Shown piece after piece: positions 1 through 58,739 of a DNA stretch of 64,000 nt. Location of the stretch: positions 423,336,001-423,400,000 of the forward strand of contig OZ024740.1 in assembly GCA_964016885.1 (NCBI GenBank). Reading direction: 5' to 3'. Origin of the DNA: Eledone cirrhosa (Eukaryota). The stretch's first letter is position 1. Each line of letters starts with the position of its first letter. The notes beneath the pieces are model-generated. The model made no database searches, was not told the origin of the DNA, and saw only the letters and a list, made by a program, of their open reading frames with translations. The position numbers and the translations under genes were made by a program.

Positions 1-1503
1 GATGAGGTGGATTCTCCACTGACAGCCGGGTCCGCCTGCACGAGAGCCGTGAGCGCCTGGGCACACTCAGTGTGCCAGGCGCCCAGTTACCTCGGTCTTT
101 GCTTGACCCAGGACTGCAGCTCGGTGAGCTAGACGAGTCCGGGAAAGGCTCGCCTCACAAACGGGGCCCACACCGGTTGACCGGTGAGGAATACCTGGAG
201 GTGCCGTAGCCTTAATGCGTGTTTACGCATCATCAGCCACGGCCTCCCCAGCCCTCCTTTCGAAGGGTGTTGACAGCAGATGGATCTCCTCACCATAGGA
301 GCCCGCTTCTTCCAAAGGAATTGGAAGAGTGTGCGCTCCATTTTGGCGAGCGTTTCCCTTGGGCAAGGCACGACGGTCAGGCGGTAGTAGATGACGGACG
401 CTATATAAGTGTCCGCCACCTCCGCCCGACCTTTCAGGGACAGTTTGCACTCGGCCCACTTCTGGGTCAGTGCAAACACTCTGTTCGTTACCTCACCCCA
501 GTTCTTCTCCACCTGGAGGTCTGGTCCGAACCAGACCCCGAGCAACTTCACCAGGCCCTCCGTCCAGCGCCCGACGATGCCATCGGAGGGCATCGATTTG
601 CCCCTCCACGTGCCGAGTTGCAAACCGATCGACTTGTCCCGGTTCAGCTTAGGCCTTGTAAACCTTTCGTACTCCTCCAGTAAGGTGCCGATCGCCCCGA
701 TTTCCGGGGCCGTCGACACCATTACTGATACGTCATCGGCGTAGGCCGATACCGCTTTCCGCAATCCCGGTTCCAACGGGATGCCCTGCAACAACTCCAA
801 CTTCCGCAGCAGTGGCTCTAGAGTCATTACATACAGAAGGGAGGAGAGAGGGCACTCTTGTCGGATGGACCGCGCGATATCGAACGGCTCCGAGAGGTAG
901 CCATTCACCTTGACTCTAGAGCAGATGCGGCTGCTGTGCATGGCAGTGATCCAGCCCCTGAAAACGAGTCCGAAGCCTGCTGCCGCTAGCACCGCATCCA
1001 GGTAACCATGGTCGACCCTATCGAACGCCTTAGATTGATCCAAGTTGATCAGGGCCCCACCTATGATGTATCGCATGAGGTGGAGGTTGTCGTGGATGGA
1101 CCTGGACGGGATAGCACATGTCTGCGCATCTCTCACCAGGTTGCCCACGACAAGCGCCAACCTCTTTGCTAGCACCTTGGCCAAAATCTGTAACTCTGTA
1201 TTTAGCAGAGTTATGGGCCTGAAATTACTTATATCGTCCCCCTTGTTCTCGTCCTTCCTCACTAGCGTGACTACGCCCTTGGTGACAACACAGGGAATTC
1301 TCCCGTTCTGTTGCCAGTTGCAGTAGACCGCCTCGAGGAGATCGGGGAACAAGTCCGGCATAGCTAGATATAGTTCGTATGGAAGACCATCGAGACCCGG
1401 GGATTTGCGTTTGCCGCATTGGCTCAGCACCTTCTCTATCTCAGCGGCTGAAATCGGTTCCTCGCAGGACTTCGCCTCCGAACAATCTGGCAAAGTGCTT
1501 TTG
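1..1503 (-). pseudogene. Tx1/L1-like ORF2 fragment (RT domain), subfamily A2-like, degraded; runs off the window start
   Basis: ORF 129..1748 contains KSPGLDGL, FRPITLLN, DQSKAFD and YADD. It has a QECPLS substitution, a 9-aa deletion (YIIGGAL) and a premature stop at 129. Homology to ORF2 ends at ~1503. Confidence 0.93.
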
Positions 1504-1504
1504 C

Positions 1505-2390
1505 TGCATGTGCGACGACTTGCTCGGTGAAACTCTGGGCGTAAAGGAAGACGAACTGGCCATTCTGTTCGGTAGGACCTTCCGCCCGGAACCGATGGAC
1601 AACTTCCAAAAGTTCCTGGCCTGGCAGTGCTATCGAGGAGCTCTACCAGTTCGAGACAAGCTCTACAGACATGGGCGCCCGGGCAGGGACCCTGCAATAA
1701 AGATCTGTCCGAGGTGCGTGCGAGACGAAGAAACCGTCGCGCACGCATTCATACACTGCCCGGGCGTCACCGACATGTGGGGCTATGTAGAACGACTATT
1801 GTCGCGGGTGGGACCAATCCGGTTGACCACCGAGTCCATTGTCATGATCAAACCGCCACCACCCTCCTTCAAAAACGAAGGAGAGGCAGTTTTCCTTTGT
1901 GTGATAGCTATGGCGAAAGAGGTTGTATGGTGGATAAGGTTGAAAGGGCTGAGGTCAGACACCTTTCTCTCCGGCCAACAACTGATCTTATTTTCAAATA
2001 CCACTTTGGAAGAAGAATCAGGATGGAGAGAGAGGTGCTGTACCCCAGCAAGTTTTATGAAAGGTGGGTGAAAGTGGCGAGAATGGCTCGAGTGAATGGG
2101 CCTTCTCTCTATATCAGCCTGTAGGTTGAGAAAAAGGAGGAGGAGAGGAAAGGAGTACAAACTCTTCGTACTCCTGGAGATGAGGGTTGCACATTTTTTC
2201 GGGGGTATGTGTTACCCATATGAACTGTCTCCCCCTATTGGGGAAAATCAACTAATTTTTAAATGGAATTTGTGATAATATTTTACACGTTTTTATTGTA
2301 TGTAAACTTCCCCCTTTGTATTTGTCCCCTTCTTTTGTGCCCCTGTGGCTAATAAAGAAACATATCTATCTATCCATCTATCTATCCATT
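1505..2390 (+). mobile_element. Inverted 3' end of an A1 element: ORF2 C-terminus, 3' UTR and (TATC)n tail
   Basis: Plus-strand ORFs 1379..2071 and 1627..2124 encode CPRC..ET..H..C and end in GPSLYISL*. They are followed by GCCCCTGTGGCTAATAAA and TATCTATCTATCCATCTATCTATCCAT (2363-2389). Confidence 0.92.
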
Positions 2391-3127
2391 ACCGTTGAGG
2401 GTAGGCGGCCCTCGTGTTACCTCTGTGGAGCCAGAGGTCACCTGAGGGCTGTCTGTCCTCAACTTAAAAAGAAAACCCCAATTCTGCCTACACCACCAAC
2501 AACTGCACAACCAACACAATCACCACAACCACCACTGAAAAAACAACAACCACAGCTCAAACCAAACAAAACACTGCCCCCCCCCCACACTAAAAAAAAC
2601 AATTTCCAAAACCCCTGCACCGCAAACACAACCCAAAAATCTACCCTCCCCTCCAACACGGGAGATGACCCTCGTTCGTCGTCAGACGAGGAGGAGCATT
2701 TCCACACAATCAAAAGAAAAAAAAAAGAAAACACACCTCAGACACACAAATGAAAACAACCCCTCCCCAAAACATAACACAGACACCAACACAAAAGAGC
2801 ACACAACAACAGCAAACAAAAAACACCACACAAAAACAAAAACATGCATACACATACATAAACACAATAAAAAAACCGCTAAACATTGTGTACAACAACA
2901 ATTTAGTGAAAACCCAAGGGCCTAACTTCACCCAGGCAGGGGATTTCCCCCACCTCAAAATGATTAAGGCCCCAGAGGACACATATAAAACGCTAAAAAA
3001 CAACTTTAAAGAGGACGTGCCCCCCCCCCCCCCTGCGTCTGGCCCATTAACCGCGTCCTCCTAAAAAATTCCCCCACCCTCTCCCCAAACACCCACACAA
3101 CTCCAAATACCCCAACCACACAACACA
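2387..3127 (+). pseudogene. Inverted ORF1 C-terminal fragment (zinc knuckle onward), A2-like
   Basis: ITVEGRRPSCYLCGARGHLRAVCPQL and downstream frameshifted pieces closely match the ORF1 at 13974..15755. Confidence 0.9.
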
Positions 3128-5064
3128 CTGTCGAATGGATCGCGTGATATGGAACGGCTCCGAGAGGTAGCCGTTCACCTTAACTCTTGAGCAGATGTTG
3201 CTGTTATGCATTGCAGCAATCCAGCCCCTGAACACGGGTCCGAGCCTGCCGCCTCGAGCACCGCATCCAGGTAACGATGGTCAACCCTATCGAAAGCCTT
3301 AGACTGATCCAAGTTGATCAGGGCCCCACCGAAGCCGGGTTTACACCCTACCCTCTCTATGATGTATAGCATGAGGTGGAGGTTGTCGTGTATGGACCTG
3401 GTCGGGATTGCGCATGTCTGCGCTTCTCCCACCAGGTTTCCGACGACAAGCGCCAGCCTCTTTGCCAACACCTTGGCCAAAATCTGTAACTCTGTGTTTA
3501 GCAGAGTGATGGGCTGGAAGTTGCCTATGTCATCCTCCTTATTCTCGTCCTTCCTGATTAGTGTGACTACGCCCCCGGTCACAGAACTGGGAATTCTCCC
3601 GTTCTGTTGCCAGTTGCAGTAGACCGCTTCCAGGAGACCGGAGAATAAGACCGGCATTGCTATGTAAAATTCGTAGGGTAGACCGTCGAGACCTGGAGAT
3701 TTGCGTTTTCCGCATTGGCTCAACGCGTCCCCTATCTCAGCGGCTGAAATCGGCCTTTCACAGAACTTTGCCCCGCTGTCCGAGAGTTGCGGTAGGCCGT
3801 CGAGGTATGGACCGAAATCCACAGCCCCTCCCGGCGCGCCGCCCTGCCCGAACAGCCGAGCAAAGTGCCGCTGAAAGGCCGCACATATCTGTTTCGGCTC
3901 ACGTATTACACGTCCGTTTTGGTCCTTCAAAGACCGAATCCTGGACGTATTGCCACTTTTTGCCTCCGTCACTCAGGCCCAGCTAACAGCTTTGGCTCCC
4001 TCATTTCCCAGAGCACGTATTTTGCTTCTGACATAACAACACTTGTGCTTTGCGTCGAAGAACTGGTCCAAGGCCGTTCTCGTTGCTAACATGCTGGCTA
4101 CGTTGCCACTTCTAATTGCCTCTTCTACTTTATCTACCAGTTCTTTCTCGGTTCTATTTCTATCTAACGCTAATTCTTTACTAAAAACTAACGAGTCTAA
4201 TCTAACTGCCTTCTTGAGAGAGTACCACCATCTGTTGTTGACAATGGCCCCTGTCAAGTGCTGTTTAACTAAAGTGCTAATCCGTCTACTGTAGGCTTTG
4301 CATGTTGGTAACGACAAGTTCAGCTTCCAGTAGCCGGGTCCTTGTCTATGGGTTCTATCAAGGTTGACCATGCAGGTCACTAGTTTGTGATCTGAATAGG
4401 CAACCATGAACATTTGTGGACAGCTTAACATGTCCCTATACTTCTTTCTAACTAGAACCCTAACTAGGTACGATCTAGATGTTCCGCTAAGATTAGTCCA
4501 CGTCCACAGTGGCACAGTCGGAAAATCTAGTCGATATCTATCGGCCAGGTCAAATCGGCCGATTAACTGTTTGAAGATGTTACACCCCCTTTATCGGGAC
4601 ATGCTCCCACATAGTCCCAACATGCATCTAGGAATCCATTCCAGTCCCCCACTAAAAGCAAGGAGCGGGACGTTCCCAGAATAGTCTCTAGACGTTTGAA
4701 GAAGTCTGGCCGCGGTGTCCCGGATGGGGCATATGCGGCCACCAGCCTGAAGGCTCCACCTTCACTACCGTCAACGTCTAGGACCACCAGTCGACCCTCC
4801 GGGTCCAGATGTACCGTCTGTGTTACAAGGCCCAGGTGTTTCTGCAGCAAAACGGCAACCCCGCCCCCACCCCCCGGCTGACAGAGAGATGCGTAGATCT
4901 CAAAGTCATCGAAGATGGGGGCCAGCTGTCGCTCGCTGTGGCCTGGACTCGCAAATGGCTACTACATCCATACTGTGCGACCTGAGGTCGTTTAAGAGTT
5001 TGCCCTGTTTCCAGGGCATCCCCAGGCCGCGTACATTCACACACCCAACTCTTATATTGGCCAT
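3128..5064 (-). pseudogene. A1a ORF2 (APE endonuclease and N-terminal RT), disrupted and truncated
   Basis: ATG at 5064 in ACCAACATGGCC context; stops and frameshifts; ends just before the QGCPLS motif. Confidence 0.88.
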
Positions 5065-5098
5065 GTTGGTTCTGAAAAGTTAAAAGAGAAGAAAACAC

Positions 5099-6920
5099 TC
5101 ACCTCTTCATCTCCCGGGGATCAGGCTGCACGGTTTCCATGGGGGTGTTAGAGGAGTTGTCTGGGTGGGTGGTGGTTTCCGGCGGGGTGGGGACGGAGAT
5201 GTTTGGTGGGATGGGGTGTCTGGGGTGGCGGTGTCTGGGTTTAACACAAGGATTACCCACGTCCTTAGGAACGTTTTCCTTTAAAGACTTATAGGTGTCC
5301 GTAGGGACCCTAATCATCTTTAAATTAGGTTTGTCTACACAGTTTGAAAAAGTTTTCCCGTCGGTTTTCACCGAAGGGTCGTTGGAGATGACCTCCATTA
5401 AAGTTTTGTTTTTACTGTTTATGTATGTGTAATGTTCTTGTTGTGTGGCGGTGGTTTTTGTCTGTTGTTCTTGTGGGAGCTTTCGTTTTGTTGTAGGTGT
5501 TTGTGCTTGGAGTGATGTCATGGTTTTGTTTTCGGGACGCGGGGGGGGGGGTTGTTTGTAATGTTTGTGTTGTTTGTGTTGGTGGTTGTATGTTTGTAGT
5601 GATGTTTGTTGTTTTTTTTGTTCTTGTGGTGTCTTTTCTTCTTTCTTTTCGAACGGAGAGGCTCTCCCTCATCATCACTTGGTGATGATGTGGGGGCCTC
5701 GTCCGTTGTGGTGTCTGTGTTATTTGGAAGGGGTATGTTTTGGGGAGCTGTTGTGTTTCTGGGTGTTTTTGCAGTGGTTTTAGGTGGAGTGGGGTTGGGT
5801 AGGACTGTGCTTGCAGGTTGGTTTGTTGTTCTTGTTTTGGTTGTGTTTGCGTGTTCTTGTTGTTGTTGTTGTGGTGGTGGTGGTTGTGTTGTTGTTTTGG
5901 GTGTTGGCAGTAGTGCCTCTCTTTTTTTTAGTTAACTGAGGACAGTAAGCCTTCAGGTGACCACTGCTTAAACAGTGGTAACATGAAGGCCGCCTACCCT
6001 CAACAGAAATGTTTATGTGTGAAATTCCATCCAGAGGCACACGTTGGGGTATTTTAACTATCCGTTCTGGCCTCATTTGGACCAGAACTTCCATGCTTGT
6101 ACCATTGAATGTGCCTCTGGAGGACTTTCCCACCAAAATGATGGTGTCTTCGTCGAAATCGATGAAGCCAGTTAGAATCCACCAGACGTTTACATTTGGT
6201 ACAATGTTCGAAATTTTTATTTTTTGAGTTCTTTTTCCCATATATGTGGGGAAAAAGGTGTAAAGAGGGGACACAATCGGCGATACAGAATATTTTTGTG
6301 CTGTCAATTGGTCTTTCAACACAACCGAAATGCTTCCAAAAAGTTTCCCTTTTTGGATGAAGGCAATATCCTTCATGGAATTCTTCAGAACCAGTTCAAT
6401 ATCGTTTTGGGATAACTGAACTGGTTTTTTCGACACATTTGAAACTGTCCTAAAAATTACTGTTTTTAGAACAGTTTCTCTGCGTAACTGTTGAGGAGAA
6501 GTGATGCTGAAAGCACCACTCTCACCAAAAGTTACGTACTGTTTTTAACATTTCCCTAGCATTGGAAATGTCAAGGTATGTGAACAGTTCCGTCTTTTGG
6601 ACGGTTTGAGCAAAAGAAATCTTTTCCTTGTTCGTGGAGTTGTTCGTGTTGCTGGTGTTGTTGTTATCATTGTTGCTGTTGTTGTTCTTGTTGTCATTAT
6701 TGTTGTTGTTGTTGTTGTTGTTGTTCTGGTTGGTGTTGTTTATATTTTGCATGTTATTGGTGTTTGTGTTAGTGATGATGTTACAATCAACGTCCGACAT
6801 CGCGTTTTCAAAACTGACGACATTTTCGATGTCTTTCAATGGGGTGGTGAGAGGAGGTGACTGCGAGCTTAACACTCTTACCGCCTCTCCACCACTTCTA
6901 GTTATGAACGCAGCGTTCAT
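5099..6920 (-). pseudogene. A1a ORF1 (N-rich N-terminus, CCHC zinc knuckle), disrupted
   Basis: CYHCLSSGHLKAYC knuckle; homologous to ORF1 13974..15755; split over several frames. The start codon is uncertain. Confidence 0.85.
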
Positions 6921-7140
6921 GACTGAATGCAAGGTTTGTTTACACTTTTTTTTCACCGGCGAAATTGTTTTCAAAACGAAAATTTCACCCCAAGGAGGGG
7001 TGAAGATGACTTGACCCACCGTCTGAAAGTCCAGACGTGGGGTCAAGCTATAAAATAGTAATAAATTTAACAATAAATTTTTGATTTCTTACTTAGAAAA
7101 TCAACAAAAACTTACCAGCGAACTGGCACACGTCTCAAGA

Positions 7141-10100
7141 TGGATAGATAGATAAATGGATAGATGGATAGATAGATGGAGAGAGAGATAGATAGATAAA
7201 TTTCTTTATTAGCCACAAGGGCACAAAAGAAGGGGACAAATACAAATGGGGAGTTTACATACAGGTATATGAAAATAAAACTATTAATAAAATAACAAAT
7301 AACAATTGATATCCCCAATAGGGGGGAGGTGTTACACAGGGGTTGTACACACCCCGAAAAAATGTACAACCCTCATCTCCAGGAGCACCAAGAGTGAGTA
7401 CTCCTTTCCTCTCTTCCTCTTTTTCCTCAACCTACAGGCTTATATAGAGAGAAGGCCCAACCACTCGGGCCATCTTTGCCACATTCACCCACCTTTTATA
7501 AAACTTGCTGGGGTACAGCACCTCTCTCTCCATCCTGATTCTTCTTCCAAAATGATATTTGAAAAAACGAATCAGTTGCTGGCCGGAGAGAAAGGCGTCT
7601 GACCTCAGCCCTTTTAACCTCGTCCACCATATAACCTCTTTCACCGTAGCCATAATACATAGGAAAACCGCCTCTCCCTCGTTTTTGAAGGAGGGTGGCG
7701 GTTTGATCATGACAATGGACTCGGTGGTCAACTGGATTGGTCCCACCCGCGGCAATAGTCGTTCTACATAGCCCCACAGTTCGGTAACGCCCGGGCAGTG
7801 TACAACTGCGTGTGCGACGGTTTCCTCGTCGCGCACGCATCTCGGACAGATCTTTTTCGAAGGGTCCCTACCCGGGCACCCGTGTCTGTAGAGCTCCTCG
7901 GTAGCACTGCCAGGCCAGGGACTTTTGGAAGGTGTCCATCAGTCCCGGGCGGAAGGTCCTACCGAACAGACTGGCCAGTTCGTCCCCCTCTACGCTTAGA
8001 GTTTCTCCGGGTTTGTCGTCGCACTTGCTGCGGACCAACCCTCTATAGAATGTCGAAGTGGAGTCTCCACTGATCGCCAGAGGATTGTTAGCGCCTGAGC
8101 ACATTCCATGTGCCAGTCGCCCATTTTCCTCGGTCTTTGCTTGACCCAGGACTGTAGCTCGGTCATCAAGACGAGTCGTGGGAAGGCTCGCTTCACGAAC
8201 GGGGCCCACACCGGTTGTCTGGTGAGGAATAGATGGAGGTGCCGCAGCCTGAGCGCGTGTTTACGCATCGTCAGCCACGGCATCCCCAGCCCTCCGTTTG
8301 AGGGGTGTTTGCAGCAGATGGATCTTCTCACCAAAGGAGCCCGCTTCTTCCAAAGGAATTGGAAGAGCGCGCGCTCCATTTTGGTGAGCGTTTGGGCTGG
8401 ACAAGGCACAACGGTCAAGCGGTAGTAGATGGCGGACGCTATAAAAGTGTTCGCTACCTCCGCTCGACCTTCCAAAGATAGTTTGCACTCGGCCCACTTC
8501 TGGGTGAGCGCAAACACCTTGGCCGTCACTTCGTTCCAGTTCTTCTCCACCTGGAGGTCAGGACTAAACCAGACCCCGAACAGCTTTACCGGTCCTTCCG
8601 TCCAGCATCCGACGGCGTCATCGGAAGGCATCGGTTTGCCTCTCCACGTTCTGAGTTGCAAACCGACGGATTTCTCCCGGTTCAGCTTCGCTCCTGTGAA
8701 CCTTTCGTATTCCTCCAGTAAGGTGCCGATCTCGCCGATTTGCGAGGTGCTCGACACCATTACTGCTTTTCGCAGTCCCGGTTCCAAAGGGATGCCCTGC
8801 AATAGCTCCAACTTCCGCAGTAGTGGCTCGAGAGTCAGTACGTACAGAAGGGAGGAGAGAGGGCATCCCTGTCGGATGGATCACGTGATATGGAACGGCT
8901 CCGAGAGGTAGCCGTTCACCTTGACCCTTGAGCAGATGTTGCTGTTGTGCATTGCAGCAATCCAGCCCCTGAACACGGGAAGCTTGCCGCCTCGCGCACC
9001 GCATCCAGGTAACGATGGTCAACCCTATCGAAAGCCTTAGACTGATCCAAGTTGATCAGGGCCCCACCGAATCCGGGTTTACACCCTACCCTCTCTATGA
9101 TGTATCGCATGAGGTGGAGGTTGTCGTGTATGGACCTGGTCGGGATTGCGCATGTCTGAGCTTCTCCCACCAGGTTTCCGACGACAACCGCCAGCCTCTT
9201 TGCCAACACCTTGGCCAAAATCTGTAACTCTGTGTTTAGCAGAGTGATGGGCCGGAAGTTGCCTATGTCATCCCCCTTGTTCTCGTCCTTCCTGACTAAC
9301 GTGAATACGCCCTTGGTCACAGAACTGGGAATTCTCCCGTTCTGCTACCAGTTGCAGTAGACCGCTTCCAGGAGATCGGAGAACAAGTCCGGCATTGCTA
9401 CGTAAAATTCGTAGGGTAGACCGTCGAGACCTGGAGATTTGCGTTTGCTGCATTGGCTCAGCGTGTCCCCTATCTCAGCGGCCTTTCACAGAACTTTGCC
9501 CCGCTGTTAACAGCTTTGGCTCCCTCGTTTCACAGAGCACGTATTTTGCTTCTGACAACGCAGCCTTCATGCTTTGCGTGAAAGAACTGGTCCAAGGCCG
9601 TTCTCGTCGCTAGCACGCTGGCTACGTTGCCACTCCTAAGTGCCTCTTCTACTTTATCTACCAGTTCCTTTTCGGTCTTATTTCTATCTAACACTAATTC
9701 TTTACTAAAACCTATCGAGTCTAATCTAACTGCCCTCTTGAGAGAGTACCACCATCTGTTGTTGACAATGGCCTCCGTCAAGTGCTGCTTAACTAAAGTG
9801 CTAATCCGTCTACTGTAGGCTTTGCATGTCGGTAACGACAAGTTCAGCTTCCTGTAGCCGGGTCCCTGTCTATGGGTTTTGTCAAGGTTGACTAAGCAGG
9901 TCTCTAATTTGTGATCTGAATAGGCAACCATGAACATTTGTGGACAGCTTAACATGTCCCTATACTTCTTTCTAACTAGAACCCTAACTAGGTACGATCT
10001 AGATGTTCCGCTAAGATTAGTCCACGTCCACAGTGACAAGTCGGAAAATCTAGTCGATATCTATCGGCCAGGTCAAATCGGCCGATTAACTGTTTGAGGC

Positions 10101-10180
10101 TGTTACACCCCCCTCTATCAGGACATGCTTCCACATAGTCCCAACGTGCATCTAGGATTCCATTCCAGTCCCCCACTAAC
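7141..10180 (-). mobile_element. Tx1/L1-like element A1b, 5'-truncated in the EN domain, degraded
   Basis: GATA/GATG tail at 7141-7198, 3' UTR, ORF2 stop at 7432, fragments 7432..7836, 7996..8811, 8916..9320 and 9530..10039. Internal deletion near 9506; ends at LLVGDWN (~10180). Confidence 0.92.
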
Positions 10181-10511
10181 AGAGATGGATGGATAGATGG
10201 ATAGATGGATGGATGGATGGATAGATAGATAGATAGATAGATAGATATATTTCTTTTATTTGCCACTAGGGCATCAAAAGTGGGACAAGTACAAAGGGGG
10301 GAGTTTACACAAAAAGGCGTCCTCAATAAGGAGGAGGCAATAACAAAATATAAAAATAAAATAAGATATAACAAAAAATAAAATTTTTAACAAAATCCTC
10401 AATAGAGAGGAGGCGCCTTGGGGGGTCGCACACACCCCCGAAAAAAGTGTGCAACCCTTCTCCTCAGGAGCACAGAGAAGGGGTGCTCCCTTGGTCTTTC
10501 ATCTTCCTCAC

Positions 10512-13500: not shown

Positions 13501-13949
13501 CAACGTGCATCTAGGATACCATTCCAGTCCCCCACTAATAGCAAGGAGCGGGACGTCCCTAGAAAAGTCTCCAGACGATGGAAGAAGTCCGGCCGCATTG
13601 ACCCGAAAGGGCCGTAGGCGGCTACCAACCTAAACGCTCCGCCTTTACCACTGCCAAGGTCCAGAACCACTAGTCGACCCTCCGGGTCCAAATGTACCAT
13701 CTGTGTTGCGAGACCCAGATGTTTTTGCAGCAGAACGACAACTCCACCCCCACCTCCAGGCTGACAGAGAGATGCGTGCATCTCAAAGTCATCAAAGGTG
13801 GGGGCCAGCTGTCGCACGTTGCTGATCCGGGCCTCGCAAATAACCATCACATCTATACGTTGTGACCTGAGGTCATTTAGAAGCATTGCCTGCTTCCAAG
13901 TTGAGCCCAGGCCACGCGCATTTAAACAGCCTACTCTTAGCATAGCCAT
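10512..13949 (-). CDS. ORF2p: APE endonuclease, reverse transcriptase and C-terminal Cys/His domain
   Basis: Open frame of 1153 codons; first ATG at 13949 (MAMLRVGCLNARG). EN motifs LNARG, GDWN, YLD, SDH; RT motifs DQSKAFD, QGCPLS, YADD; C-terminal CPRC..ET..H..C. Confidence 0.97.
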   Translation of the reverse strand: MAMLRVGCLNARGLGSTWKQAMLLNDLRSQRIDVMVICEARISNVRQLAPTFDDFEMHASLCQPGGGGGVVVLLQKHLGLATQMVHLDPEGRLVVLDLGSGKGGAFRLVAAYGPFGSMRPDFFHRLETFLGTSRSLLLVGDWNGILDARWDYVGACPDREGCNSLKGLIGRFDLADRYRLDFPTAPTWTWANRSGSSRSYLDRFLVRIKDKDFLSCPKMRIVGYSDHKLVTCMVNLDRTHRQGPGYWKLNLSLPASRAYRNRISTLVKERLTGAIVNSRWWVSLKREIRVVSIEFSKVLAADRNRKERELIDRVEEAIRSGDVARVLASRTALSQFFDAKHEGCVVRSKIRALGNEGTKAVSWARVTEANSGTKSTIRSLRDLDGRAILEPKQMCEAFQRHFARLFGRGGEPVGNVDFGPYLDGLPRLSDREAKSCEEPISAAEIEDVLSQCGKRKSPGLDGLPYELYLAMPDLFPDLLEAVYCNWQQNGRIPCTVTKGVVTLVRKDENKGDEISNFRPITLLNTELQILAKVLAKRLALVVGNLVGDAQTCAIPSRSIHDNLHLMRYIIERVGNEPGFGGALINLDQSKAFDRVDHGYLDAVLAAAGFGPVFRGWITAMHSSRICSRVKVNGYLSEPFKIARSIRQGCPLSSLLYVLTLEPLLRKLELLQGIPLEPGLRKAVSAYADDVTVMVSTASEIEAVGTLLEEYEKFTGAKLNRDKSIGLQLGTWRGRPMPSDSVVGRWTEGPVKLLGVWFGPDLQVEKNWAEVTNRVFALTQKWASCKLSLKGRAEVANTYIASVIYYRLTVVPCPREILTKMERALFQFLWKRRAPMVRRSICCQHPSKGGLGMPWLMMRKHALRLRHLYVFLTGQPVWASFVRRTFPRLVSLTELQSWVKQRPRKLGAWHTECAQALTALWQADPVISGDSTATFYRGLVRSRCDDALGEALDMEEDELASLFGRTFSPGPMDNFQKSLAWQCYRGALPVRERLYRHGRPGRDPAKKICPRCVCDEETVAHALVHCSGVADLWGYVEQLLSRVGPIRLTTESIVMIKPPPPFKDEAEAVFLCVIAMAKEVVWWTRLKGLRSGTFLSGQQLVRFFRYHFGRRIRMEREVLHPSRFYERWVKVARMARVNGPSLYIRL

Positions 13950-13971
13950 GTTGGTGGTGAAGAGAAAAGGC

Positions 13972-13980
13972 ACTTACCTC
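13972..13980 (-). promoter_or_regulatory. Consensus 5' splice donor GAG|GTAAGT overlapping the ORF1 stop (equivalents at 5097, 19745, 29588 and in every complete B unit)
   Basis: Sequence match and positional conservation in four families; use is not demonstrated. Confidence 0.6.
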
Positions 13981-15755
13981 TCTGCGTCCCGGGTATCGGG
14001 CTGCACAATTTCCATTAGGGTGGGGGATGGGTTGTTGGGTGGGGTGGTGGTTTGTGGAAGTGTGGGGGCATCAGTGTGTTGTGTGGTTGGGGAGCTTGGA
14101 GTTGTGAGGGTGTTTGGGGAGGGGGTGGGATAGTTTTTTAGGAGGACTCGGTTAATGGGCCCGACGCAGGGGGGACCCACGTCCTCTTTAAAATTGTTTT
14201 TTAAAGTTTTATAGGTGTCCTGTGGGGCCTTAATCATTTTGAGGTGGGGGAAATCCCCTGCCTGGGTGAAGTTAGGCCCTTGTGTTTTTATTAGATTGTT
14301 GTTGTACACAATGTTTAACAGTTTTTTGTTTCTTGTATTTATGTATGTGTATGCATGTTTTTGTTTTTGTGTGGTGTTTTTTGTTTGCTGTTGTGAGCTC
14401 TTTTGTGTTGGTGTCAGTGTTATGTTTTGGGGAGGGGTTTTTTTCATTTGTGTGTCTGAGGTGTGTTTTCTTTTTTTTCTTTTGATTGTGTGGAAGTGCT
14501 CCTCCTCGTCTGACGACGAACTAGGGTCATCTTCCGCGTTGGAGGGGAGGGGTATATTTTCGGGTTGTGTTTGCGGTACGGGTGTTTTGGAAATTGTTTT
14601 TGTTTTTTGAGTGGAGGGGATGGGTTGGACATTGTTTTGTTTTGGTTTGAGCTGTGGTGGTTGTTTTTGTAGTGGTTGTTGTGGTGATTGTGTTGGTTGT
14701 GCAGTTGTTGGTGGTGTAGGCAGGATTGGGGTTTTCTTATTAAGTTGGGGACAGACAGCCCTCAGGTGACCTCTGGTTCCGCAGAGGTAACACGAGGGCC
14801 GTCTACCCTCAACGGTAATGTTGATGAAGGTTAGATCATCCAGTATGACGCGTTCAGGGATCTGGGCGATCCTTTCGGGCCTCATTTGAACTACAAGTTC
14901 GAGGCTCGTTCCACTGAACGCGTCACCCGATGCCTTTCCCATGGACACCAGCATGTCATCCTCCAGGTCCAGAAAACCTGTCAAAACCCACCATATGTCC
15001 ATAATCGGCAGGATGGTGTGGATTTTTATTTTTTGTGTTCTTCTACCCATGTACGTAGGGTAGAAGGTGTATGCGGTGGATGTGATTGGTTTGATGGACA
15101 GTTTCACTGCTGTGTCCCTGTCCTTCATGAGAATGGATAGACTCCCGTAGAGTCTATCCTTCTGAATGAAGGTGATGTCCTTCATGACGTCTTTTAAAAC
15201 CAGCTCTATCTCGCTCTGTGATGGTTGAGCTGGTTTTTTACTTTTGTTCGAGATTGTCCTAAACATGACCGTGTTTAGGAGTCTCTGGCTTTTTAGTTCC
15301 GGGGGGGAATGGATTGTGAATGAACCATTTTCCCCGTACACTATATATTTTTTCGCATCCGCCAGTAGCTCCTTCGCTTTTGTTATATCTACTGGCAGAT
15401 AGTCGAGGGTTTTCCTTGTCGTCTCGGCGAAGGAGAAATTTTGTTTGTTTGTGTTGTTGTTGTCGTTGGTGGTGTTGTTGTTATCATTGTTGTTGTTGTC
15501 ACCGTTATTGGTCTTGTTGTTGTTATTGTTATTGTTATTGGTGTTGTTTTCTACCGTCGCATTGTTGTTGTTGTTGCTGTTGGTTCTTTGGGTTGTTGCC
15601 ATGGTAACGTCAAGTTGTCGGTTAACAGGTGGAGAGAATTCTTCCTCTGGCTGACCTATCTTCTTGACCTCTGCTACTGTGACAGTGGCAGGGGGAAGCT
15701 GTAAGTTCATCTTCCCCTTTCCTCCTTCGAATTTTGGTGAAGAAGCTTCGGCCAT
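13974..15755 (-). CDS. ORF1p nucleic-acid-binding protein, 593 aa
   Basis: Intact ORF directly upstream of ORF2; N-rich tract, CX2CX4HX4C knuckle CYLCGTRGHLRAVC and a P/T/K/Q-rich tail. Confidence 0.95.
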   Translation of the reverse strand: MAEASSPKFEGGKGKMNLQLPPATVTVAEVKKIGQPEEEFSPPVNRQLDVTMATTQRTNSNNNNNATVENNTNNNNNNNNKTNNGDNNNNDNNNTTNDNNNTNKQNFSFAETTRKTLDYLPVDITKAKELLADAKKYIVYGENGSFTIHSPPELKSQRLLNTVMFRTISNKSKKPAQPSQSEIELVLKDVMKDITFIQKDRLYGSLSILMKDRDTAVKLSIKPITSTAYTFYPTYMGRRTQKIKIHTILPIMDIWWVLTGFLDLEDDMLVSMGKASGDAFSGTSLELVVQMRPERIAQIPERVILDDLTFINITVEGRRPSCYLCGTRGHLRAVCPQLNKKTPILPTPPTTAQPTQSPQQPLQKQPPQLKPKQNNVQPIPSTQKTKTISKTPVPQTQPENIPLPSNAEDDPSSSSDEEEHFHTIKRKKRKHTSDTQMKKTPPQNITLTPTQKSSQQQTKNTTQKQKHAYTYINTRNKKLLNIVYNNNLIKTQGPNFTQAGDFPHLKMIKAPQDTYKTLKNNFKEDVGPPCVGPINRVLLKNYPTPSPNTLTTPSSPTTQHTDAPTLPQTTTPPNNPSPTLMEIVQPDTRDAER

Positions 15756-15966
15756 TTAAAAAAATATTGACTTTTCAACAAGAAAAAACTTTTTTTTTTA
15801 ACTATTTCGCCTAAAGGCGTAGAATATTTTGAGAGACTGACCAGATCAAAGTTTGACCTGGTAGTCCCTCTACAAAATGGTACAAAAATTAAAGTTATCA
15901 GACAAGAATTTCTATAGAAATTTAAACAGAACTTACTCAGCAAGTTATACGCGTGTGTCCATCCCA

Positions 15967-17125
15967 GATAGATATATTTCTTTTATTTGCCACTAGGGCA
16001 TCAAAAGTGGGACAAGTACAAAGGGGGGAGTTTACACAAAAAGGCGTCCTCAATAAGGAGGAGGCAATAACAAAATATAAAAATAAAATAAGATATAACA
16101 AAAAATAAAATTTTTAACAAAATCCTCAATAGAGAGGAGGCGCCTTGGGGGGTCGCACACACCCCCGAAAAAAGTGTGCAACCCTTCTCCTCAGGAGCAC
16201 AGAGAAGGGGTGCTCCCTTGGTCTTTCATCTTCCTCACCTATAGTCTGATGTAGAGTGAAGGCCCATTCACACGGGCCATTCTCGCCACTTTCACCCATC
16301 TTTCATAGAAACGGCTGGGGTGCAGCACCTCTCTCTCCATCCTGATCCTTCTTCCGAAATGATATCGGAAGAAACGGACCAGTTGTTGGCCAGAGAGAAA
16401 GGTGCCCGACCTCAGTCCTTTCAGACGCGTCCACCATACAACCTCTTTCGCCATGGCTATTACGCACAGAAACACCGCCTCTGCTTCATCTTTGAAGGGT
16501 GGAGGCGGCTTGATCATTACAATAGACTCGGTGGTCAACCGGATCGGTCCCACCCTTGACAGCAGTTGTTCGACATAGCCCCACAGATCGGCTACGCCCG
16601 AGCAGTGTACTAATGCGTGTGCAACGGTTTCCTCGTCGCACACGCATCTGGGACAGATCTTTTTGGCGGGGTCCCTACCCGGGCGCCCGTGTCTGTAGAG
16701 CCTTTCTCGAACGGGTAAAGCCCCTCGGTAGCACTGCCAGGCCAGGGACTTCTGGAAGTTGTCCATAGGTCCCGGGCTGAATGTCCTACCGAACAGGCTG
16801 GCCAGTTCGTCCTCCTCCATGTCTAGGGCTTCTCCGAGGGCGTCGTCGCACCTGCTGCGTACCAGCCCTCTATAGAATGTTGCGGTGGAGTCTCCACTGA
16901 CAACCGGATCCGCCTGCCAGAGGGCGGTGAGCGCCTGGGCACACTCAGTGTGCCAGGCGCCCAGTTTTCTCGGTCTTTGCTTGACCCAGGATTGCAGCTC
17001 GGTGAGTGAGACGAGTCTGGGAAAGGTTCGTCTCACAAACGAGGCCCACACCGGTTGTCCGGTGAGGAATACGTAGAGGTGCCGTAGCCTTAATGCGTGT
17101 TTACGCATCATTAGCCACGGCATAC
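15967..17125 (-). mobile_element. A2b: 3' 1.15 kb of A2, near-identical to 10240-11395, fused to A3
   Basis: ORF 16239..17123 matches the A2a ORF2 C-terminus with about 3 nucleotide differences by eye; short GATAGATA tail. Confidence 0.93.
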
Positions 17126-20100
17126 CACGGCGTGCCTACGTATCAACAGCCACGGCATACCCAGCCCTCCTTTCGAAGGGTGCTGGCAGCAGATGGATCT
17201 CCTCACCATGGGAGGCCGCTTCTTCCAGAGGAACTGGAAGAGCATGCGTTCCATGATGGTGAGCTCTTCCTTGGGGCAAGGCACGACGGTCAGGCGGTAG
17301 TAGATGACGGACGCTATGTAAGCGTTCGTCACCTCCGCCCGACCTTTCAGTGATAGTTTGCACTTGGCCCACTTCTGGGTCAGCGCAAACACCCTGCTCG
17401 TCACCTCGCCCCAATTCTTCTCCACCTGGAGGTCCGGTCCGAACCAGACCCCGAGCAGCTTCACCGGGCCCTCCGTCCACCGCCCGACGACACCGTCTAA
17501 CGGCATCGGTTTGCCCCTCCACGTTCAGAGTTGCAAACCGACTGACTTGTCCTGGTTCAGCCTAGCCCCCGTCAGCCTTTCGTATTCCTCCAGTAGGGTG
17601 GCGATCGCCCCGATTTCCGAGGCGTCCGCCACCATTACTGTTACGTCGTCGGCATAGGCCGAGACCGCTTTGTGCAATCCCGGTTCCAGGGGTATGCCCC
17701 GCAGCAACTCCAACTTCCGCAGCAGTGGCTCGAGAGTCAATACGTACAGAAGGGAGGAGAGGGGGCACCCCTGTCTGATGGACCGGGTGATTTGAAACGG
17801 CTCCGAGAGGTAGCCGTTTACTTTAATCCTAGAGTAGATGTTGCCACTGTGCATGGCAGAAATCCAGCCCCTGAAAACGGGTCCGAAGCCCGCCGCCGCT
17901 AGCACCGCATCCAGGTAACCATGGTCGACCCTATCGAACGCCTTAGATTGATCCAAGTTGATCAGGGCCCCACCAAAGCCGGGTTCGTTGCCAACCCTCT
18001 CTACGATGTATCGCATGAGGTGGAGGTTGTCGTGAATGGACCTGGACGGGATAGCGCATGTCTGCGCGTCTCCCACCAAACCACCCACCACAAGCGCCAA
18101 CCTCTTCGCCAACACCTTGGCCAAAATCTGTAACTCTGCATTTAGCAGAGTTATGGGCCTAAAGTTACTTAAGTCGTCCCCTTTGCTCTCGTCCTTCCTC
18201 ACTAGCGTGACCACGCCCTTGGTCACAGAACAGGGAATTCTCCCGTTCTGTTGCCAGTTGCAATAGACAGCCTCGAGGAGTTCGGAGAACAAGACCGGCA
18301 TAGCTAAATAAAGTTCGTATGGTAGACCATCGAGACCCGGAGATTTGCGTCTGCTGCATTGGCTGAGCGCTTCCCCGATTTCAGTGGCTGTGATTGGCCT
18401 TTCGCAGCACTTCGCTTCGCCCCTCGAAAGACGCGGTAGACCGTCGAGGTATGGACCGAAGTCCACATCCCCGTCCGGCCCCCGCCCCCTCCGAACAGTC
18501 GAACAAAGTGCCTTTGAAAGGCCTCGCACATCCGCTCAGGTTCAAGGATCACCCGTCCATCCTGGTCTCGCAAAGACCGAATGGTGGATTTAATCCCACT
18601 CTTGGCTTCTGTCACGCGGGCCCAGCTAACAGCTTTGGTCCCCTCGTTTCCTAAAGCACGTATTTTACTTCGGACAACGCAGCCTTCGTGCTTCGCGTCA
18701 AAGAACTGGCTCAACGCTGTTCTCGCCGCTAACACTCTGGCCACGTCTCCGCTCCTAATCGCCTCTTCTAGTTTATCTGTCAACTCCCTTTCCCTCCTAT
18801 TTCTATTCGCCGCTAGTTCCTTACTGTAACCTATCGAACTTACTCTAATCTCTCTCTTTAGAGATACCCACCACCTGCTGTTGACGATCGCTCCCGTCAA
18901 CCGCATCTTAACTAAGCTACTAATCCGGTTTCTGTAATCTTTCTTTGTCGGTAAGGACAAGTTCATCTTCCAGTAACCGGGACCCTGTCTATGCGTTCTA
19001 TCAAGGTTGACCACGCAGGTCACTAATTTGTGATCTGAATAGCCAACCATGATCAATTCTGGACAACTAAATACGTCCCTATCCTTACTCCTAACCAAAA
19101 ACCTATCTAGGTACGATCTAGATTGTCCACTGCGGTTTGCCCAGGTCCAGGTTGGCGCAGTTGGACAATCTAGTCGAAATCTATCGACCAGGTCGAATCG
19201 ATCGAGTAACCCCTTGAGGCTGCTACACCCCCCTCTATCGGGACATGCCCCTGCATAGTCCCAACGCGCATCTAGGATTCCATTCCAGTCCCCCACTAAA
19301 AGCAGGGAACGCGACGTTCCTAGAAAAGTCTCCAGACGCTGGAAGAAGTCGGCTCTTTCCGCCCCGAAGGGGGCATAAAGACCGACCACTCTGAAAGCCC
19401 CGCCTTCACCGCCTCCGACGTCCAGCACCAGTAATCGACCCCCCGGGTCCGAGTGAACAATCTGTACGTCGAGAGCCAGACGTTTATCCAGCAGTACGGC
19501 AACTCCCCCCCCCCCCCGCCTCCGGGTTGACAGAGAGATGCGTGCATCTCAAAGTCATCGAAGGCGGGCGCCAGCTGTCTCACGCTGCTGATCCGACTCT
19601 CGCAAACAACCATCACATCTATACTTTGTGACCTGAGGTCATTTAGAAGCTTTGCTTGCTTCCAAGCTAAGCCCAGGCCACGCGCGTTCAAACAGCCAAC
19701 TCTCAATTGATCTATTTTGGTGTTGAAAGTGAAGAAAGAAAAGCACCTACCTCTCCGGGTTGTGTAATTTCCATGGCATCAGGTGTGTTGGGTGGAGGGA
19801 TGTTTTGTGGTGGTGTGGGGGTACCCGTGTGTGGTGGGGTTGGGGTATTTGGAGTTGTGTCAGGGAGAGGGGCGGTTATGGGGAAATCTTTCAAGAGGAC
19901 GCGATTTAACGGTTTTAAACAGGGGGGGGGGCTCACGTCCCGTCTAAATTGTTCTTTTAAGGAACGATAACGGTCCAGAGGGACCTTTATCATTTTTAAA
20001 TGGGTGAAGTTCTCTGTTGAGATAAAGTTTGGCCCTTCGGTCTGCACCATAGGGTTATTGTTTATTAATTTAACCAGTTTTTTGTTTTCTTTATTTATAT

Positions 20101-21754
20101 ATGTGTATTGCAACGTCTTTTTTTTGTGATGCTGTCAATGTTTCGGAGAGGGGAGGCGCAGATTTATTTTTGTTTGTTGAGGGTGGGGTGTTTTTGATTG
20201 GAGTTGGTGTTTGTGTGTGGGTTATTTGTGGTGTGCTGGGTGTGTGTTTTCTTTTTTTTCTTTTAACTTGTCTGAAGGCTTCTCCTCCTTCTTCTTCAGA
20301 AGTTGGGGGAACTCTTCAGCGCTAGGTGGGAGGGACGTGTTGTGTGGTTGTTTTTTTTTGCGGGAGGGGTAGATTTGTTACTGTTTTTTTTATTATTTGT
20401 TTGGAATGGGTTTTGTGGTGGTGGTGGTAATGTTTGTGTCGTGCTTGTGGTTGGTGATGGTGGTGGTGATGTTTGTGTTGTGGTTGGTGGTGGTGATTTT
20501 TGTGTCGTGCTTGTGTTTGGTGCTGGTGGTGGTGATGTTTGTGTTGTGTTTGTGGTTGGTGGTGTCTGTATTTTGTTTGCTGTGTGTGGTATTAGTGTAT
20601 TTTTGGAGGTGGGTGGTGTTGGTGTACTGTTTGTGGTGGGTGTGGGCAATAGTCCTTTTTGAGGGATACGTTTCGGGCAGTTAGCCTTAACGTGTCCCCT
20701 TTCCATGCATAAATAGCATGCTGGTCTTCTCCCCTCTACAATTATATCTATTGGGGTAAGGTCATCCAGCCAGATGCGATCCGGGATTTGTGCTATTCTT
20801 TCGGGCCTCATTTGGACTAGTATGTCGAGGCCCATTCCCAGGAACGCATCTCCAGTTGCCTTCCCCATTGACAGCATTGTGTCTTCGCCCATGTCTATGA
20901 AGCCAGCAATAGCCCACCAGAAGTCCATTGTGGGCAGCATTGTTTTTACTTTTACTCTCTGTGTTCTACCCATGTAGGAGGGATAGAAGCTGTATGCTGT
21001 CGATGAGAGTGGGCTTAGGGAAAGCTTCTCCGCCGTTTCCTTGTCTTTTGTTAAGACCGAAATGCTGCCATAGAGTCGGTCCTTTCGTATGAAGAGAATA
21101 TTCTTCATATAGTCTTTTAGGACCAACTCTATTTCCATTTGGCTGGGCTGTGCTGGCTTTCTTGTTTGGTTCAGTATAGTTCTGAAGAGAACTGTGCTCT
21201 CTGTTCTGGCTTTCTTGAATTCTGGGGGGGGGGGGGAGTTAATGGAAAACATTCCGTTCTCCCCCAAGACTATTTGTTTTTTCGCTTCGGCCAGTTTTTC
21301 TCTGGTGGCAGTTAAGTCAATTGGTGTGTATGTTATGGATTGTTTTGTTTTCTGGGCGAAAGTTGCCCTGTTGTTATTTGTATTATTTTCTGTTTGTTTG
21401 TTTTCCGTTTGCTCATTTTCCTTAACATTTGTTTTTTCATTTTCCTTGTTTGTTTCGTTGTCTAATTTTGTTGTAATTATTTTTTGTTCTTCAGACTTGG
21501 GGGGCGTGGCAGAGCTAATGGCAGACATGTCTGCCATCTTTTCCGCCATGCTGCCAAGAAAGAAATTTTTCGGCAAGAAAATAGATATTTATTTTACCCC
21601 CTAAAAAGGGGGTAAATGCAAAAATGTTTCCCTAAATAACAGTGGTTAGTGTTCCAAATGTGTTGCACTGAAAAATTTATCCGGTACTTACTATAGTAAG
21701 GGTAAATCCCGATGGAATAGCGGAGCCGATGTGAAGCGTGTCATACTCTATCAA
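17126..21754 (-). mobile_element. Tx1/L1-like element A3: 5' UTR, ORF1 and most of ORF2, frameshifted; own 3' end absent
   Basis: ORF2 pieces 17111..17506, 17525..18529, 18304..19428 and 19320..19706; ORF1 pieces 19712..20113 and 20296..21576; followed by (GATA)3 at 21755-21767. Confidence 0.92.
19712..21549 (-). pseudogene. A3 ORF1, frameshifted
   Basis: ATG at 21549 (MAEKMAD); CYLCMERGHVKANC knuckle; short P/T repeats; homologous to A2 ORF1. Confidence 0.87.
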
Positions 21755-21946
21755 GATAGATAGATAGACACATACAGAGAGAGAGAGAGAGAGAAGAAGA
21801 AGCCTATTTTGCAAGTCCTGACTAAATGAAGTGGTTCTGAATTTTTGCCAAAAAAAGATAACTTCAGCATCATTCACAAAAAAAGTAAAAACAGAGAAAA
21901 ACTTCAAGAAATAGACACACACACAGACACACACATATATACACAT

Positions 21947-25843: not shown

Positions 25844-25930
25844 TTGTCCCCTATATGTCGGCCCTTGTGGCCAATAAATAATAATAACGATTTCATTTAT
25901 TGGCCACAAGGGCCGACATATAGGGGACAA
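25844..25930. repeat. Perfect 36-bp inverted repeat of the family-B 3' terminus
   Basis: 25844-25879 is the reverse complement of 25895-25930, with a 15-nt spacer. Confidence 0.95.
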
Positions 25931-37541: not shown

Positions 37542-37809
37542 AATAATAATAATAATGATTTCATTTATTGGCCACAAGGGCCGACATATAGGGGACAACA
37601 CAATAGACAGGGACAGTGGGGGTTTACATAGAGATCGAGTAAGTATAAATAACAAAAAAACAAAATAACAATAAAAATACAACAATGAAAGTTCCCCAAT
37701 AAGAGGGATCACCACCCAGGGTTGACTCAAGCACCCCACCAGTCCTGAGCCACCCGACGCTCCTAGGGCACCCGGGAAGGGCACTCCTCTCCTTCTCGAA
37801 TTCACCAGC

Positions 37810-41229: not shown

Positions 41230-41258
41230 GCTGGCAGGATGAATGGGAGAGGAAAGGT

Positions 41259-43164: not shown

Positions 43165-43644
43165 GTTTTTTTGAGAAAAAAATTATTATTTTTTTTCAAA
43201 ATAAAGTTCAAATATTTGGGCCAAAAGGCCCAAATATTATGAGTTATTCCTTCACAGGATACAAATTAATGTCTTATAATGCTTCAGCGGTACAAAAAAA
43301 TAAACAATTCTCTACAATTAATCCTCAAAAAATTGCTTACTCACGGAGCTTCAAAAAACGTACATCCACTTTCGTCAATAATAATAATAATGATTTCATT
43401 TATTGGCCACAAGGGCCGACATATAGGGGACAACACAATAGACAGGGACAGTGGGGGTTTACATAGAGATCGAGTAAGTATAAATAACAAAAAAACAAAA
43501 TAACAATAAAAATACAACAATGAAAGTTCCCCAATAAGAGGGATCACCACCCAGGGTTGACTCAAGCACCCCACCAGTCCTGAGCCACCCGACGCTCCTA
43601 GGGCACCCGGGAAGGGCACTCCTCTCCTTCTCGAATTCACCAGC

Positions 43645-46600: not shown

Positions 46601-47048
46601 GATACTCCCACACAATCCCAGCGTGCTTCTAAGATGCCATTCCAATCCCCTATTAACAGTAAAGGGCGAGACGTAAGCAGAAAGAGAAGTCCGGCCGACC
46701 GGCCCCAGTAGGGGCGTAGACGGCCACCAGTCTAAAGGCACCACCTTCGCTATTGCTCACGTCCAGGACCACCAACTTTCCGTCAGGATCCCGGAAGATT
46801 GACCTTACCTCGAGATCCAGACATTTCCTAAACAGCACAGCCACTCCACCTCCCATTCCCGGCCGACTAACAGATGCAAAGATCTGATAATCGTCGAAAA
46901 TCGGCGCCAGTGCGCGTGTGTCGGAAATTCTGGTCTCGCTGATGGCAATTACATCCATTCCTAGTGACCTGAGGTCGTTGAGCAAGTGACCTTGCTTCCA
47001 GGGCGACCCCAGGCCACGAACATTTAAACTTCCTACTCTTATGGCCAT
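43645..47048 (-). pseudogene. B4 ORF2, frameshifted in the EN domain; RT frame open for 988 aa
   Basis: TTTTCCAGGCGCCTAA is missing at 46684/46685. Confidence 0.9.
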
Positions 47049-47077
47049 GCTGGCAGGATGAATGGGAGAGGAAAGGT

Positions 47078-48988: not shown

Positions 48989-49198
48989 GTTTTTTTTGAG
49001 AAAAAAATTATGATTTTTCCAAAATAAAGTTCAAATATTTGGGCCAAAAGGCCCAAATATTATGAGTTATTCCTTCACAGGATACAAATTAATGTCTTAT
49101 AATGCTTCAGCGGTACAAAAAATAAACAATTCTCTACAATTAATCCTCAAAAAATTGCTTACTCACGGAGCTTCAAAAAACGTACATCCACTTTCGTC

Positions 49199-58710: not shown

Positions 58711-58739
58711 GCTGGCAGGATGAATGGGAGAGGAAAGGT

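What the first reader, a model, noticed from the sequence alone, without database searches (positions are those of the whole stretch)
1..21767. Mixed-subfamily head-to-tail LINE array built on (GATA/TATC)n: self-propagating microsatellite targeting
Seen: every element-to-element junction except the chimera is a TATC/CATC repeat (2363-2389, 7141-7198, 10181-10247, 15967-15974). The array's outer 5' flank is also (GATA)3 (21755-21767). Full-length and 5'-truncated copies of three diverged subfamilies of different decay ages are stacked in one orientation. Established: Tx1-clade elements are often sequence-specific, and Kibi/Koshi target TC/TTC microsatellites. Inference: these elements target (TATC)n and end in the same repeat, so each insertion renews a landing pad. 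I do not recall a described TATC-specific family.
Basis: partly seen in the sequence, partly recalled or inferred. Interest (0 to 1): 0.75.

Follow-up and report, generated by a model that had tools for sequence, protein, structure and literature searches.

The report
Octopod LINEs stacking in GATA repeats
This is a pile of seven related jumping genes (LINE retrotransposons), probably from an octopus-like animal, that sit in TATC/GATA repeats and copy a short piece of the landing site, likely because their own enzyme cuts that repeat; repeat-seeking relatives are known, but I found no report of this target.

Summary
The array is real and the targeting holds genome-wide. Window 1-21767 plus about 2.3 kb to its left holds seven Tx1-like LINE insertions of at least five subfamilies. 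One, at 10248-15966, is intact. (TATC)3 precedes 25, 24 and 19 of 30 full-length copies of three subfamilies and 31 of 56 5'-truncated copies, against 0.06% of background windows, always on one strand. All 69 sampled 3' ends continue into TAT[A/C]T; none has poly(A).

Two corrections. (1) The tail is mostly duplicated target, not element-encoded: it mirrors the 5' flank and 17 of 56 copies show 11-22 bp duplications (shuffled mean 1.4). (TA)n and single TATAT/TATCT sites are also used. (2) Segment 1480-3128 is inverted.

A sister family in the same window (25891 onward, ORF2 69% identical) uses (ATT)n instead. Microsatellite-targeting Tx1 elements are known (Kibi, Koshi, crocodilian families); seven searches showed no TATC target. 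Repbase and Dfam could not be searched, and Tx1 membership was not tested phylogenetically. This scan already noted the same family at eight or more other places in this genome.

The parts
1..1479 (-). 3' half of an A2-subfamily copy (92% to A); it continues 905 bp left of the window to a (TATC)4 junction, followed by two further 5'-truncated copies (E-1, E-2)
1480..3128 (+). Inverted segment: 3' end of element C (1503-2362), TATC junction, and an ORF1 piece of an A-like copy (2390-3128, 90% to A; inferred to be the 5' part of the A2 copy)
   Evidence: the 3' piece is 84-96% identical to six C-type loci, 90% or more in five
2363..2389 (+). TATC/CATC junction, inverted relative to the others
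3129..7140 (-). 5' two-thirds of element C (near full-length 5' end, ORF1 and first part of ORF2, both broken)
7141..7198 (-). Decayed (TATC)n junction
7199..10183 (-). Element D, 5'-truncated and internally deleted (93% to C over two stretches)
10184..10247 (-). Junction: pure (TATC)7 next to element A, CATC-interrupted tract next to D
10248..15966 (-). Element A, full-length, 5719 bp, both ORFs open; 99.9% to a dispersed full-length copy
13974..15755 (-). ORF1, 593 aa, with CX2CX4HX4C zinc knuckle at residue 322; no Pfam match
10512..13973 (-). ORF2 frame, 1153 aa stop to stop: APE endonuclease, reverse transcriptase, zf-RVT (the last below Pfam's cut-off)
15967..15974 (-). Short junction, two TATC units
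15975..17124 (-). A-type 3' piece (99.7% to A) standing in place of B's own 3' end; chimera junction without TATC
   Evidence: eight B-type loci are only 81-82% identical to this piece
17125..21754 (-). Element B, full-length 5' end, ORFs broken, 98-99% to dispersed B copies
21755..21794 (-). Outer 5' flank: host compound microsatellite, (TC)n then (TATC)3 on the element strand
25891..64000 (-). Comparison, outside the finding: array of 10 full-length units of sister family T with (ATT)n junctions, continuing to window position 84172

Best explanation
The array is a stack of separate insertions by a young clade of two-ORF, L1/Tx1-type LINEs that land in one orientation at TAT[A/C]T, mostly inside (TATC)n, and duplicate 11-22 bp of the site, likely because their APE endonuclease nicks the (GATA)n strand and reverse transcription is primed there. 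Shown: the motif, the strand, the duplications, the absence of poly(A), and the frequent stacking. Inferred: nicking by the element's endonuclease; priming at a fixed point two bases after the terminal AAAGAAA, probably helped by a short RNA-DNA match at UAU; and growth of the array by repeated insertion into tracts that each duplication preserves on both sides. One inversion and one chimera arose in addition.
For: 5' flanks with (TATC)3 in 40 nt: A 25/30, B 24/30, C 19/30 (each set includes the window's own copy); 5'-truncated A 31/56, and 20/43 of those with no family copy upstream; (GATA)3 in the 5' flank 0 in every set; background 0.06%. 69/69 3' ends continue TATCT (55) or TATAT (14) two bases after AAAGAAA; 0/69 have poly(A). 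Informative abutting duplications in 17/56 truncated copies (two are duplicates of one event), shuffled mean 1.4, maximum 6. Tails of two or more TATC units in 28/31 copies with (TATC)3 upstream and 7/25 without, p = 3e-6. L123-L125 show three copies, two inserted at the tail of the first with matching duplicated letters. Among the first 100 A-type 3' ends on C1, 8 adjacent pairs lie within 7 kb, all on the same strand, 0.44 expected. Array members are 75-99.7% alike and differ in truncation. TATC subfamilies A, A2, B, C, D form one RT clade, 100/100. ORF2 is open in 30/39 full-length A copies, both ORFs in 22/39.
Against: 13/56 truncated copies have neither TATC nor (TA)6 upstream and 8/56 lie in (TA)n, so specificity is a strong preference, not strict. 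No nicking or priming was measured. No empty pre-insertion allele was compared. The background is only 200 kb and microsatellites are clumped. Full-length sets were the best matches to the query, not a random draw, and the 3'-end sample is from one chromosome (69 of the first 70 matches of 1,959). One row counted as truncated (L163) may be a near full-length variant with another 5' end. In pure repeats a duplication cannot be told from slippage. In the C-terminal tree, E-2 is not resolved with the other TATC families.
Confidence: 0.85

Rival explanations
1. Target choice is made mainly at priming: the RNA reads through into the flanking (UAUC)n and pairs with a nicked (GATA)n strand, while the endonuclease only needs a short TAT core shared with the (ATT)n sister family.
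For: No poly(A) at 69/69 ends although an AATAAA lies about 8 nt upstream of the repeat. All three repeats used share TAT. The beta-hairpin region of the endonuclease is nearly the same in A and T, with one position (202) where five TATC rows agree and T differs. Primer-template complementarity affects L1 priming (PMC3649969, passages).
Against: At non-repeat and (TA)n targets most copies add no TATC unit and start at the same base, which points to a fixed start, not to long pairing. The endonuclease is the more diverged domain between A and T (61% against 80% for RT; 33 diagnostic positions). Endonuclease swapping is reported to set the target in TRAS1/SART1 (PMC1919474 passage).
Confidence: 0.25
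2. The (TATC)n is element-encoded at the 3' end (and perhaps the 5' end), so flanking repeats are products of insertion, not targets.
For: One or a few TATC units follow the element in some copies with no TATC upstream (L170, L174, L201, L215). Many full-length A copies end their 5' flank in TATCTC (21/39), so a few bases are probably element-derived.
Against: Truncated copies, which lack the element's 5' end, have (TATC)3 upstream in 31/56; tail length follows the 5' flank; 10/14 copies without upstream TATC have none at the 3' end.
Confidence: 0.07
3. The array grew by DNA-level tandem duplication or by co-retrotransposition of read-through multimers, not by separate insertions.
For: The neighbouring T array has identical spacers and neighbour-shared variants, so DNA-level expansion happens in this region. 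The B/A chimera and the inversion show recombination or rearrangement inside the array.
Against: Members are 75-93% alike except A and the A-type piece, differ in length and decay, and A and B are far closer to dispersed copies (99.9%, 98-99%) than to each other.
Confidence: 0.08

Closest known systems
Kibi (TC)n and Koshi (TTC)n of teleosts; crocodilian Tx1 families in (TTCC)n/(TTTC)n (PMC4494074 passages and section 15; PMC3812793 passages)
   Same: APE-type non-LTR elements that insert preferentially in a pyrimidine-rich microsatellite.
   Different: Target here is TAT[A/C]T, mostly (TATC)n; host is likely an octopod; relatedness to Kibi/Koshi was not tested because no named sequences were available.
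Dong (TAA)n, Waldo (ACAY)n, Mino (AC)n, Togen (TG)n (PMC3812793 and PMC4640811 passages)
   Same: Microsatellite targeting; Dong uses the same repeat as sister family T; Waldo uses a tetranucleotide.
   Different: Other clades (Waldo and Mino R1, Togen NeSL-related; Dong R4 with a restriction-like endonuclease, recalled); none is listed with TATC.
SINEU-3 and Tx1-Mar of crocodilians (PMC4494074 passages)
   Same: Tandem copies separated by a target-site duplication, read by the author as sequential insertions.
   Different: Target is a Mariner element, not a microsatellite.
L1-Tx1 families annotated in Octopus vulgaris (PMC13282606 passages: 13 recently active families, 421 insertions)
   Same: Recently active L1-Tx1 LINEs in an octopod; this family or a relative may be among them.
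   Different: The passages seen give no target preference; sequences and supplements were not compared.
Human LINE-1 ORF2p (PDB 8sxt, E 1e-48)
   Same: APE-RT layout, aligned catalytic motifs, duplications of similar length (recalled for L1).
   Different: L1 primes on poly(A) at T-tracts; these copies have no poly(A) and ORF1 has a CCHC knuckle.

Membership tests
L1 group of APE-type non-LTR retrotransposons | Two ORFs; ORF2 with N-terminal APE, RT and C-terminal zinc-binding domain | tested here: met
   (Exo_endo_phos, RVT_1; zf-RVT below cut-off in A, above in T)
L1 group of APE-type non-LTR retrotransposons | ORF2 closer to L1 than to R2 among solved structures | tested here: met
   L1 E 1e-48, R2 E 4e-19
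L1 group of APE-type non-LTR retrotransposons | Marks of target-primed insertion: 5' truncation, fixed 3' end, target-site duplication | tested here: met
Tx1 clade | RT groups with Tx1L, Keno, Kibi, Koshi in a phylogeny | not testable with these tools
   Homologue searches and look-ups returned no protein named as a Tx1-clade reference; trees held only unnamed relatives
Tx1 clade | ORF1 with CCHC zinc knuckle (feature recalled, also found in other clades) | tested here: met
   CX2CX4HX4C at residue 322
Target-specific family by the criterion in PMC4494074 | One sequence type in more than 20% of flanks | tested here: met
   31/56 to 25/30; criterion read
Kibi / Koshi | Insertion into (TC)n or (TTC)n | tested here: not met
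   69/69 3' junctions begin TATCT or TATAT
Kibi / Koshi | Phylogenetic membership of the Kibi/Koshi lineage | not testable with these tools
   no reference sequences obtainable
Sequence-specific endonuclease | Purified domain nicks the target in vitro | not testable with these tools
   bench experiment

The most novel reading that the evidence does not exclude
A young octopod LINE radiation has split the genome's microsatellites between sister families, (TATC)n for one and (ATT)n for another, with the choice set partly by RNA read-through pairing so that a target switch needs few protein changes; and the TATC clade occupies, preserves and lengthens a large share of the genome's GATA tracts (22 of the first 88 tracts on C1 carry a family-type 3' end).
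Probability: 0.25. Interest if true: 0.7.

Novelty: new variant of a known kind. Interest (0 to 1): 0.45.

Why it matters
It adds a target, (TATC)n, to the short list used by microsatellite-seeking LINEs, and it supplies a close natural pair: two young families with intact reading frames, 69% identical in ORF2, with mutually exclusive repeats (0/69 A ends in (ATT)4; 0/30 T ends in (TATC)3). That pair makes it directly testable whether the endonuclease or RNA-DNA pairing picks the site. It also means many GATA microsatellites in this genome abut a LINE, which bears on marker design and on how such tracts persist. The strategy itself is known.

Tried and rejected
DNA search with A's 3' end gave no match, probably because its words are too common; an exact pattern found 1,959 ends. 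Sequencing runs: no RNA holder listed, which says nothing on expression; contigs of four runs were laid and gave no usable information on ends or empty alleles. First duplication count used a shifting offset and a weak control; it was replaced by the fixed-offset, abutting test. T-family rows failed through a pattern error, fixed. 5'-truncated T copies were too few and often from diverged relatives or short elements to test T's target; that rests on full-length 5' flanks (29/30) and 3' flanks (17/30 with (ATT)4). Homologue searches gave no named Tx1 reference. No structure was predicted. Three papers on R1Bm, SART1 and Tx1L (PMC1074724, PMC515065, PMC85248) were not held, and the supplements of PMC4494074, whose Fig. 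3 lists known Tx1 targets, could not be seen; a TATC family could be listed there. Rejected: assembly artefact (members are diverged and match dispersed copies), passive accumulation (single strand, fixed register), purely element-encoded tail, single orientation throughout.

Full report
Setting. The window is G000:C1:423336001-423400000 of a 3.0-Gb genome. The closest named relatives of ORF2 are Argonauta hians proteins at 62-65% identity, so the host is likely an octopod; this is inference.

Anatomy. Read on the element strand, from the right, the array is: host (TC)n-(TATC)3 flank (21755-21794); element B (21754-17125) joined without TATC to a 1.15-kb A-type 3' piece (17124-15975); two TATC units; intact element A (15966-10248); a 64-bp tract; truncated D; a 58-bp tract; C; an inverted block (1480-3128); the 3' half of an A2 copy; and, left of the window, two more truncated copies ending in a decayed TATC tract. 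That is seven insertions, eight if the chimera counts as two. Identity to A: A2 92%, B 81%, C and D 81%, E-2 75%. A is 99.9% and B 98-99% identical to dispersed copies, the leftward members 91-96% to their best match among fetched loci. The inverted block holds C's own 3' end (90-96% to five of six C-type loci), its TATC junction and an A-like ORF1 piece; it reads as an inversion with flanking deletions of an originally head-to-tail pair (inference). B's normal 3' end is only 81-82% like the A-type piece in eight loci, so the chimera is real. Element A has ORF1 (593 aa, CCHC knuckle) and ORF2 (APE, RT, zf-RVT); L1 ORF2p is the best solved match.

Targeting, 5' side. The 30 best matches to each 5' end were fetched for A, B and C. 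(TATC)3 lies within 40 nt upstream in 25, 24 and 19 of 30, and (GATA)3 in none; each set includes the window's copy. Background is 0.06% of 39,840 windows from 20 ten-kb regions. To exclude an element-encoded leader I sampled by the 3' end: an exact 26-mer finds 1,959 A-type ends, and I examined 69 of the first 70 on C1. Of these 56 were scored as 5'-truncated: 31 have (TATC)3 upstream, 8 more (TA)6, 4 two TATC units, 13 neither. Without those that sit behind another family copy, 20 of 43 have (TATC)3. In the background, 46 of 8,789 TAT[A/C]T sites lie in (TATC)3 context and 5,907 in (TA)n, so TATC is preferred far above its share.

Targeting, 3' side. All 69 ends continue TATCT (55) or TATAT (14) two bases after AAAGAAA; none has poly(A). 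Duplications that are not pure repeat and abut the 5' junction occur in 17 of 56 truncated copies, 11-22 bp, two of them copies of one event; shuffled pairs give 1.4 on average, 6 at most. Tails of two or more TATC units occur in 28 of 31 copies with (TATC)3 upstream and 7 of 25 without (p = 3e-6). Of 14 copies with no TATC in the last 25 nt upstream, 10 have no TATC unit downstream. The tail is therefore mostly target. A few copies (L170, L174) have TATC units without an upstream match, so a small element contribution is not excluded.

Stacking. A family-type 3' end lies within 260 bp upstream of 15 of 39 full-length A loci and of 11/30 B and 15/30 C 5' ends. Among the first 100 A ends on C1, 8 adjacent pairs are under 7 kb apart, all on one strand, against 0.44 expected. 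L123-L125 show sequential insertion at one tail with matching duplicated letters. Genome-wide there are 9,914 family-type ends followed by (TATC)3 (reversed-pattern controls 0) and 27,717 starts of (TATC)4 after a non-C base; of the first 100 such starts on C1, 23 follow a family-type end, 22 of 88 merged tracts. That short end motif may also include non-autonomous elements. ORF2 is open in 30 of 39 full-length A copies and both ORFs in 22, which fits recent activity.

Mechanism. Shown: motif, strand, register, duplication, stacking. Inferred from the target-primed model (PMC1919474 passages and discussion): the endonuclease nicks the (GATA)n strand, the RT starts at a fixed point near the RNA's end, the second nick falls 11-22 bp away, and the duplication leaves target on both sides. 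A contribution from RNA-DNA pairing is possible (PMC3649969 passages) and is the main rival.

Sister family. From 25891 to window position 84172 lie ten full-length units of family T, ORF2 69% identical to A. (ATT)4 precedes 29 of 30 best 5' matches (three are window copies) and follows 17 of 30 sampled 3' ends; neither set has (TATC)3, and no A end has (ATT)4. 1,289 T-type ends were counted. Unlike the mixed array, T units have identical spacers, and neighbours share variants absent from 15 other copies (7 for one pair), which suggests local DNA-level exchange. In the RT tree A, A2, B, C and D form a clade (100/100) with T outside; E-2, covered only in the C-terminal tree, is unresolved. In the endonuclease, 33 positions separate five TATC rows from T, one in the stretch aligned to L1's beta-hairpin (hairpin location recalled).

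What is known. Kibi (TC)n, Koshi (TTC)n and crocodilian Tx1 families on (TTCC)n/(TTTC)n (PMC4494074, passages and section 15); Waldo, Mino, Dong (PMC3812793, passages); Togen (PMC4640811, passages). O. vulgaris has 13 recently active L1-Tx1 families (PMC13282606, passages); PMC9115989 (passages) concerns RTE elements. Searches listed no paper whose title or abstract start describes a TATC/GATA-targeting LINE; most hits were seen as listings only. Kojima and Fujiwara 2004 was not read. Repbase and Dfam were not searchable, and the supplements and tree figure of PMC4494074 could not be seen. Tx1 membership rests on architecture, not on a tree with named members. Eight earlier notes of this scan report the same family on other DNA of this genome, none near this window; they are unreviewed and were read after my own tests.

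Verdict. Real, strongly supported target preference; the self-renewal works through target duplication, not an encoded tail; the array is not wholly in one orientation. A new target for a known strategy, with a useful sister-family contrast. Interest 0.45.

Noticed in passing
window 25891-64000, continuing to 84172 (L301-L303): 58-kb array of ten full-length T-family LINEs with identical (ATT)n spacers; neighbouring units share variants, two units differ by no substitution, and divergence from the closest dispersed copies rises towards the 3' end of the array.
   Followed up: partly
window 25845-25935: The outer 3' end of the T array carries an inverted copy of the element's last ~40 bp, next to an ATT tract and a SINE-like sequence.
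   Followed up: no
L078, L083, L336, L134, L153: A short repeat ending in a sequence like T's 3' end plus (ATT)n lies upstream of several T copies; possibly a SINE moved by T whose tails T also uses as targets.
   Followed up: no
L188, L166, L181, L210: Copies 87% identical to A overall; in L188 the RT and C-terminal parts of ORF2 are 99% identical and the endonuclease 88%: a recombinant subfamily with another 5' half, also in TATC.
   Followed up: partly
L203, L204, L205 (C1, 108.7-108.8 Mb), L037, L114, L173: A copies inserted at single TATAT/TATCT sites in satellite units; L203 and L204 have the same truncation and flanks, so one insertion was duplicated with the satellite.
   Followed up: partly
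L053, L064, L065, L067: A further related family begins directly after the TATC tail of A copies; L064 and L065 also have ~970-bp spaced pieces resembling A's first 104 bp upstream.
   Followed up: no
window 22859-23350: 61-bp minisatellite, 8 copies, 98% matches.
   Followed up: no
window 24240-25260: Decayed coding sequence that looks like a hAT-type transposase remnant (recalled resemblance, not tested), between two short similar ends near 23515 and 25720.
   Followed up: no
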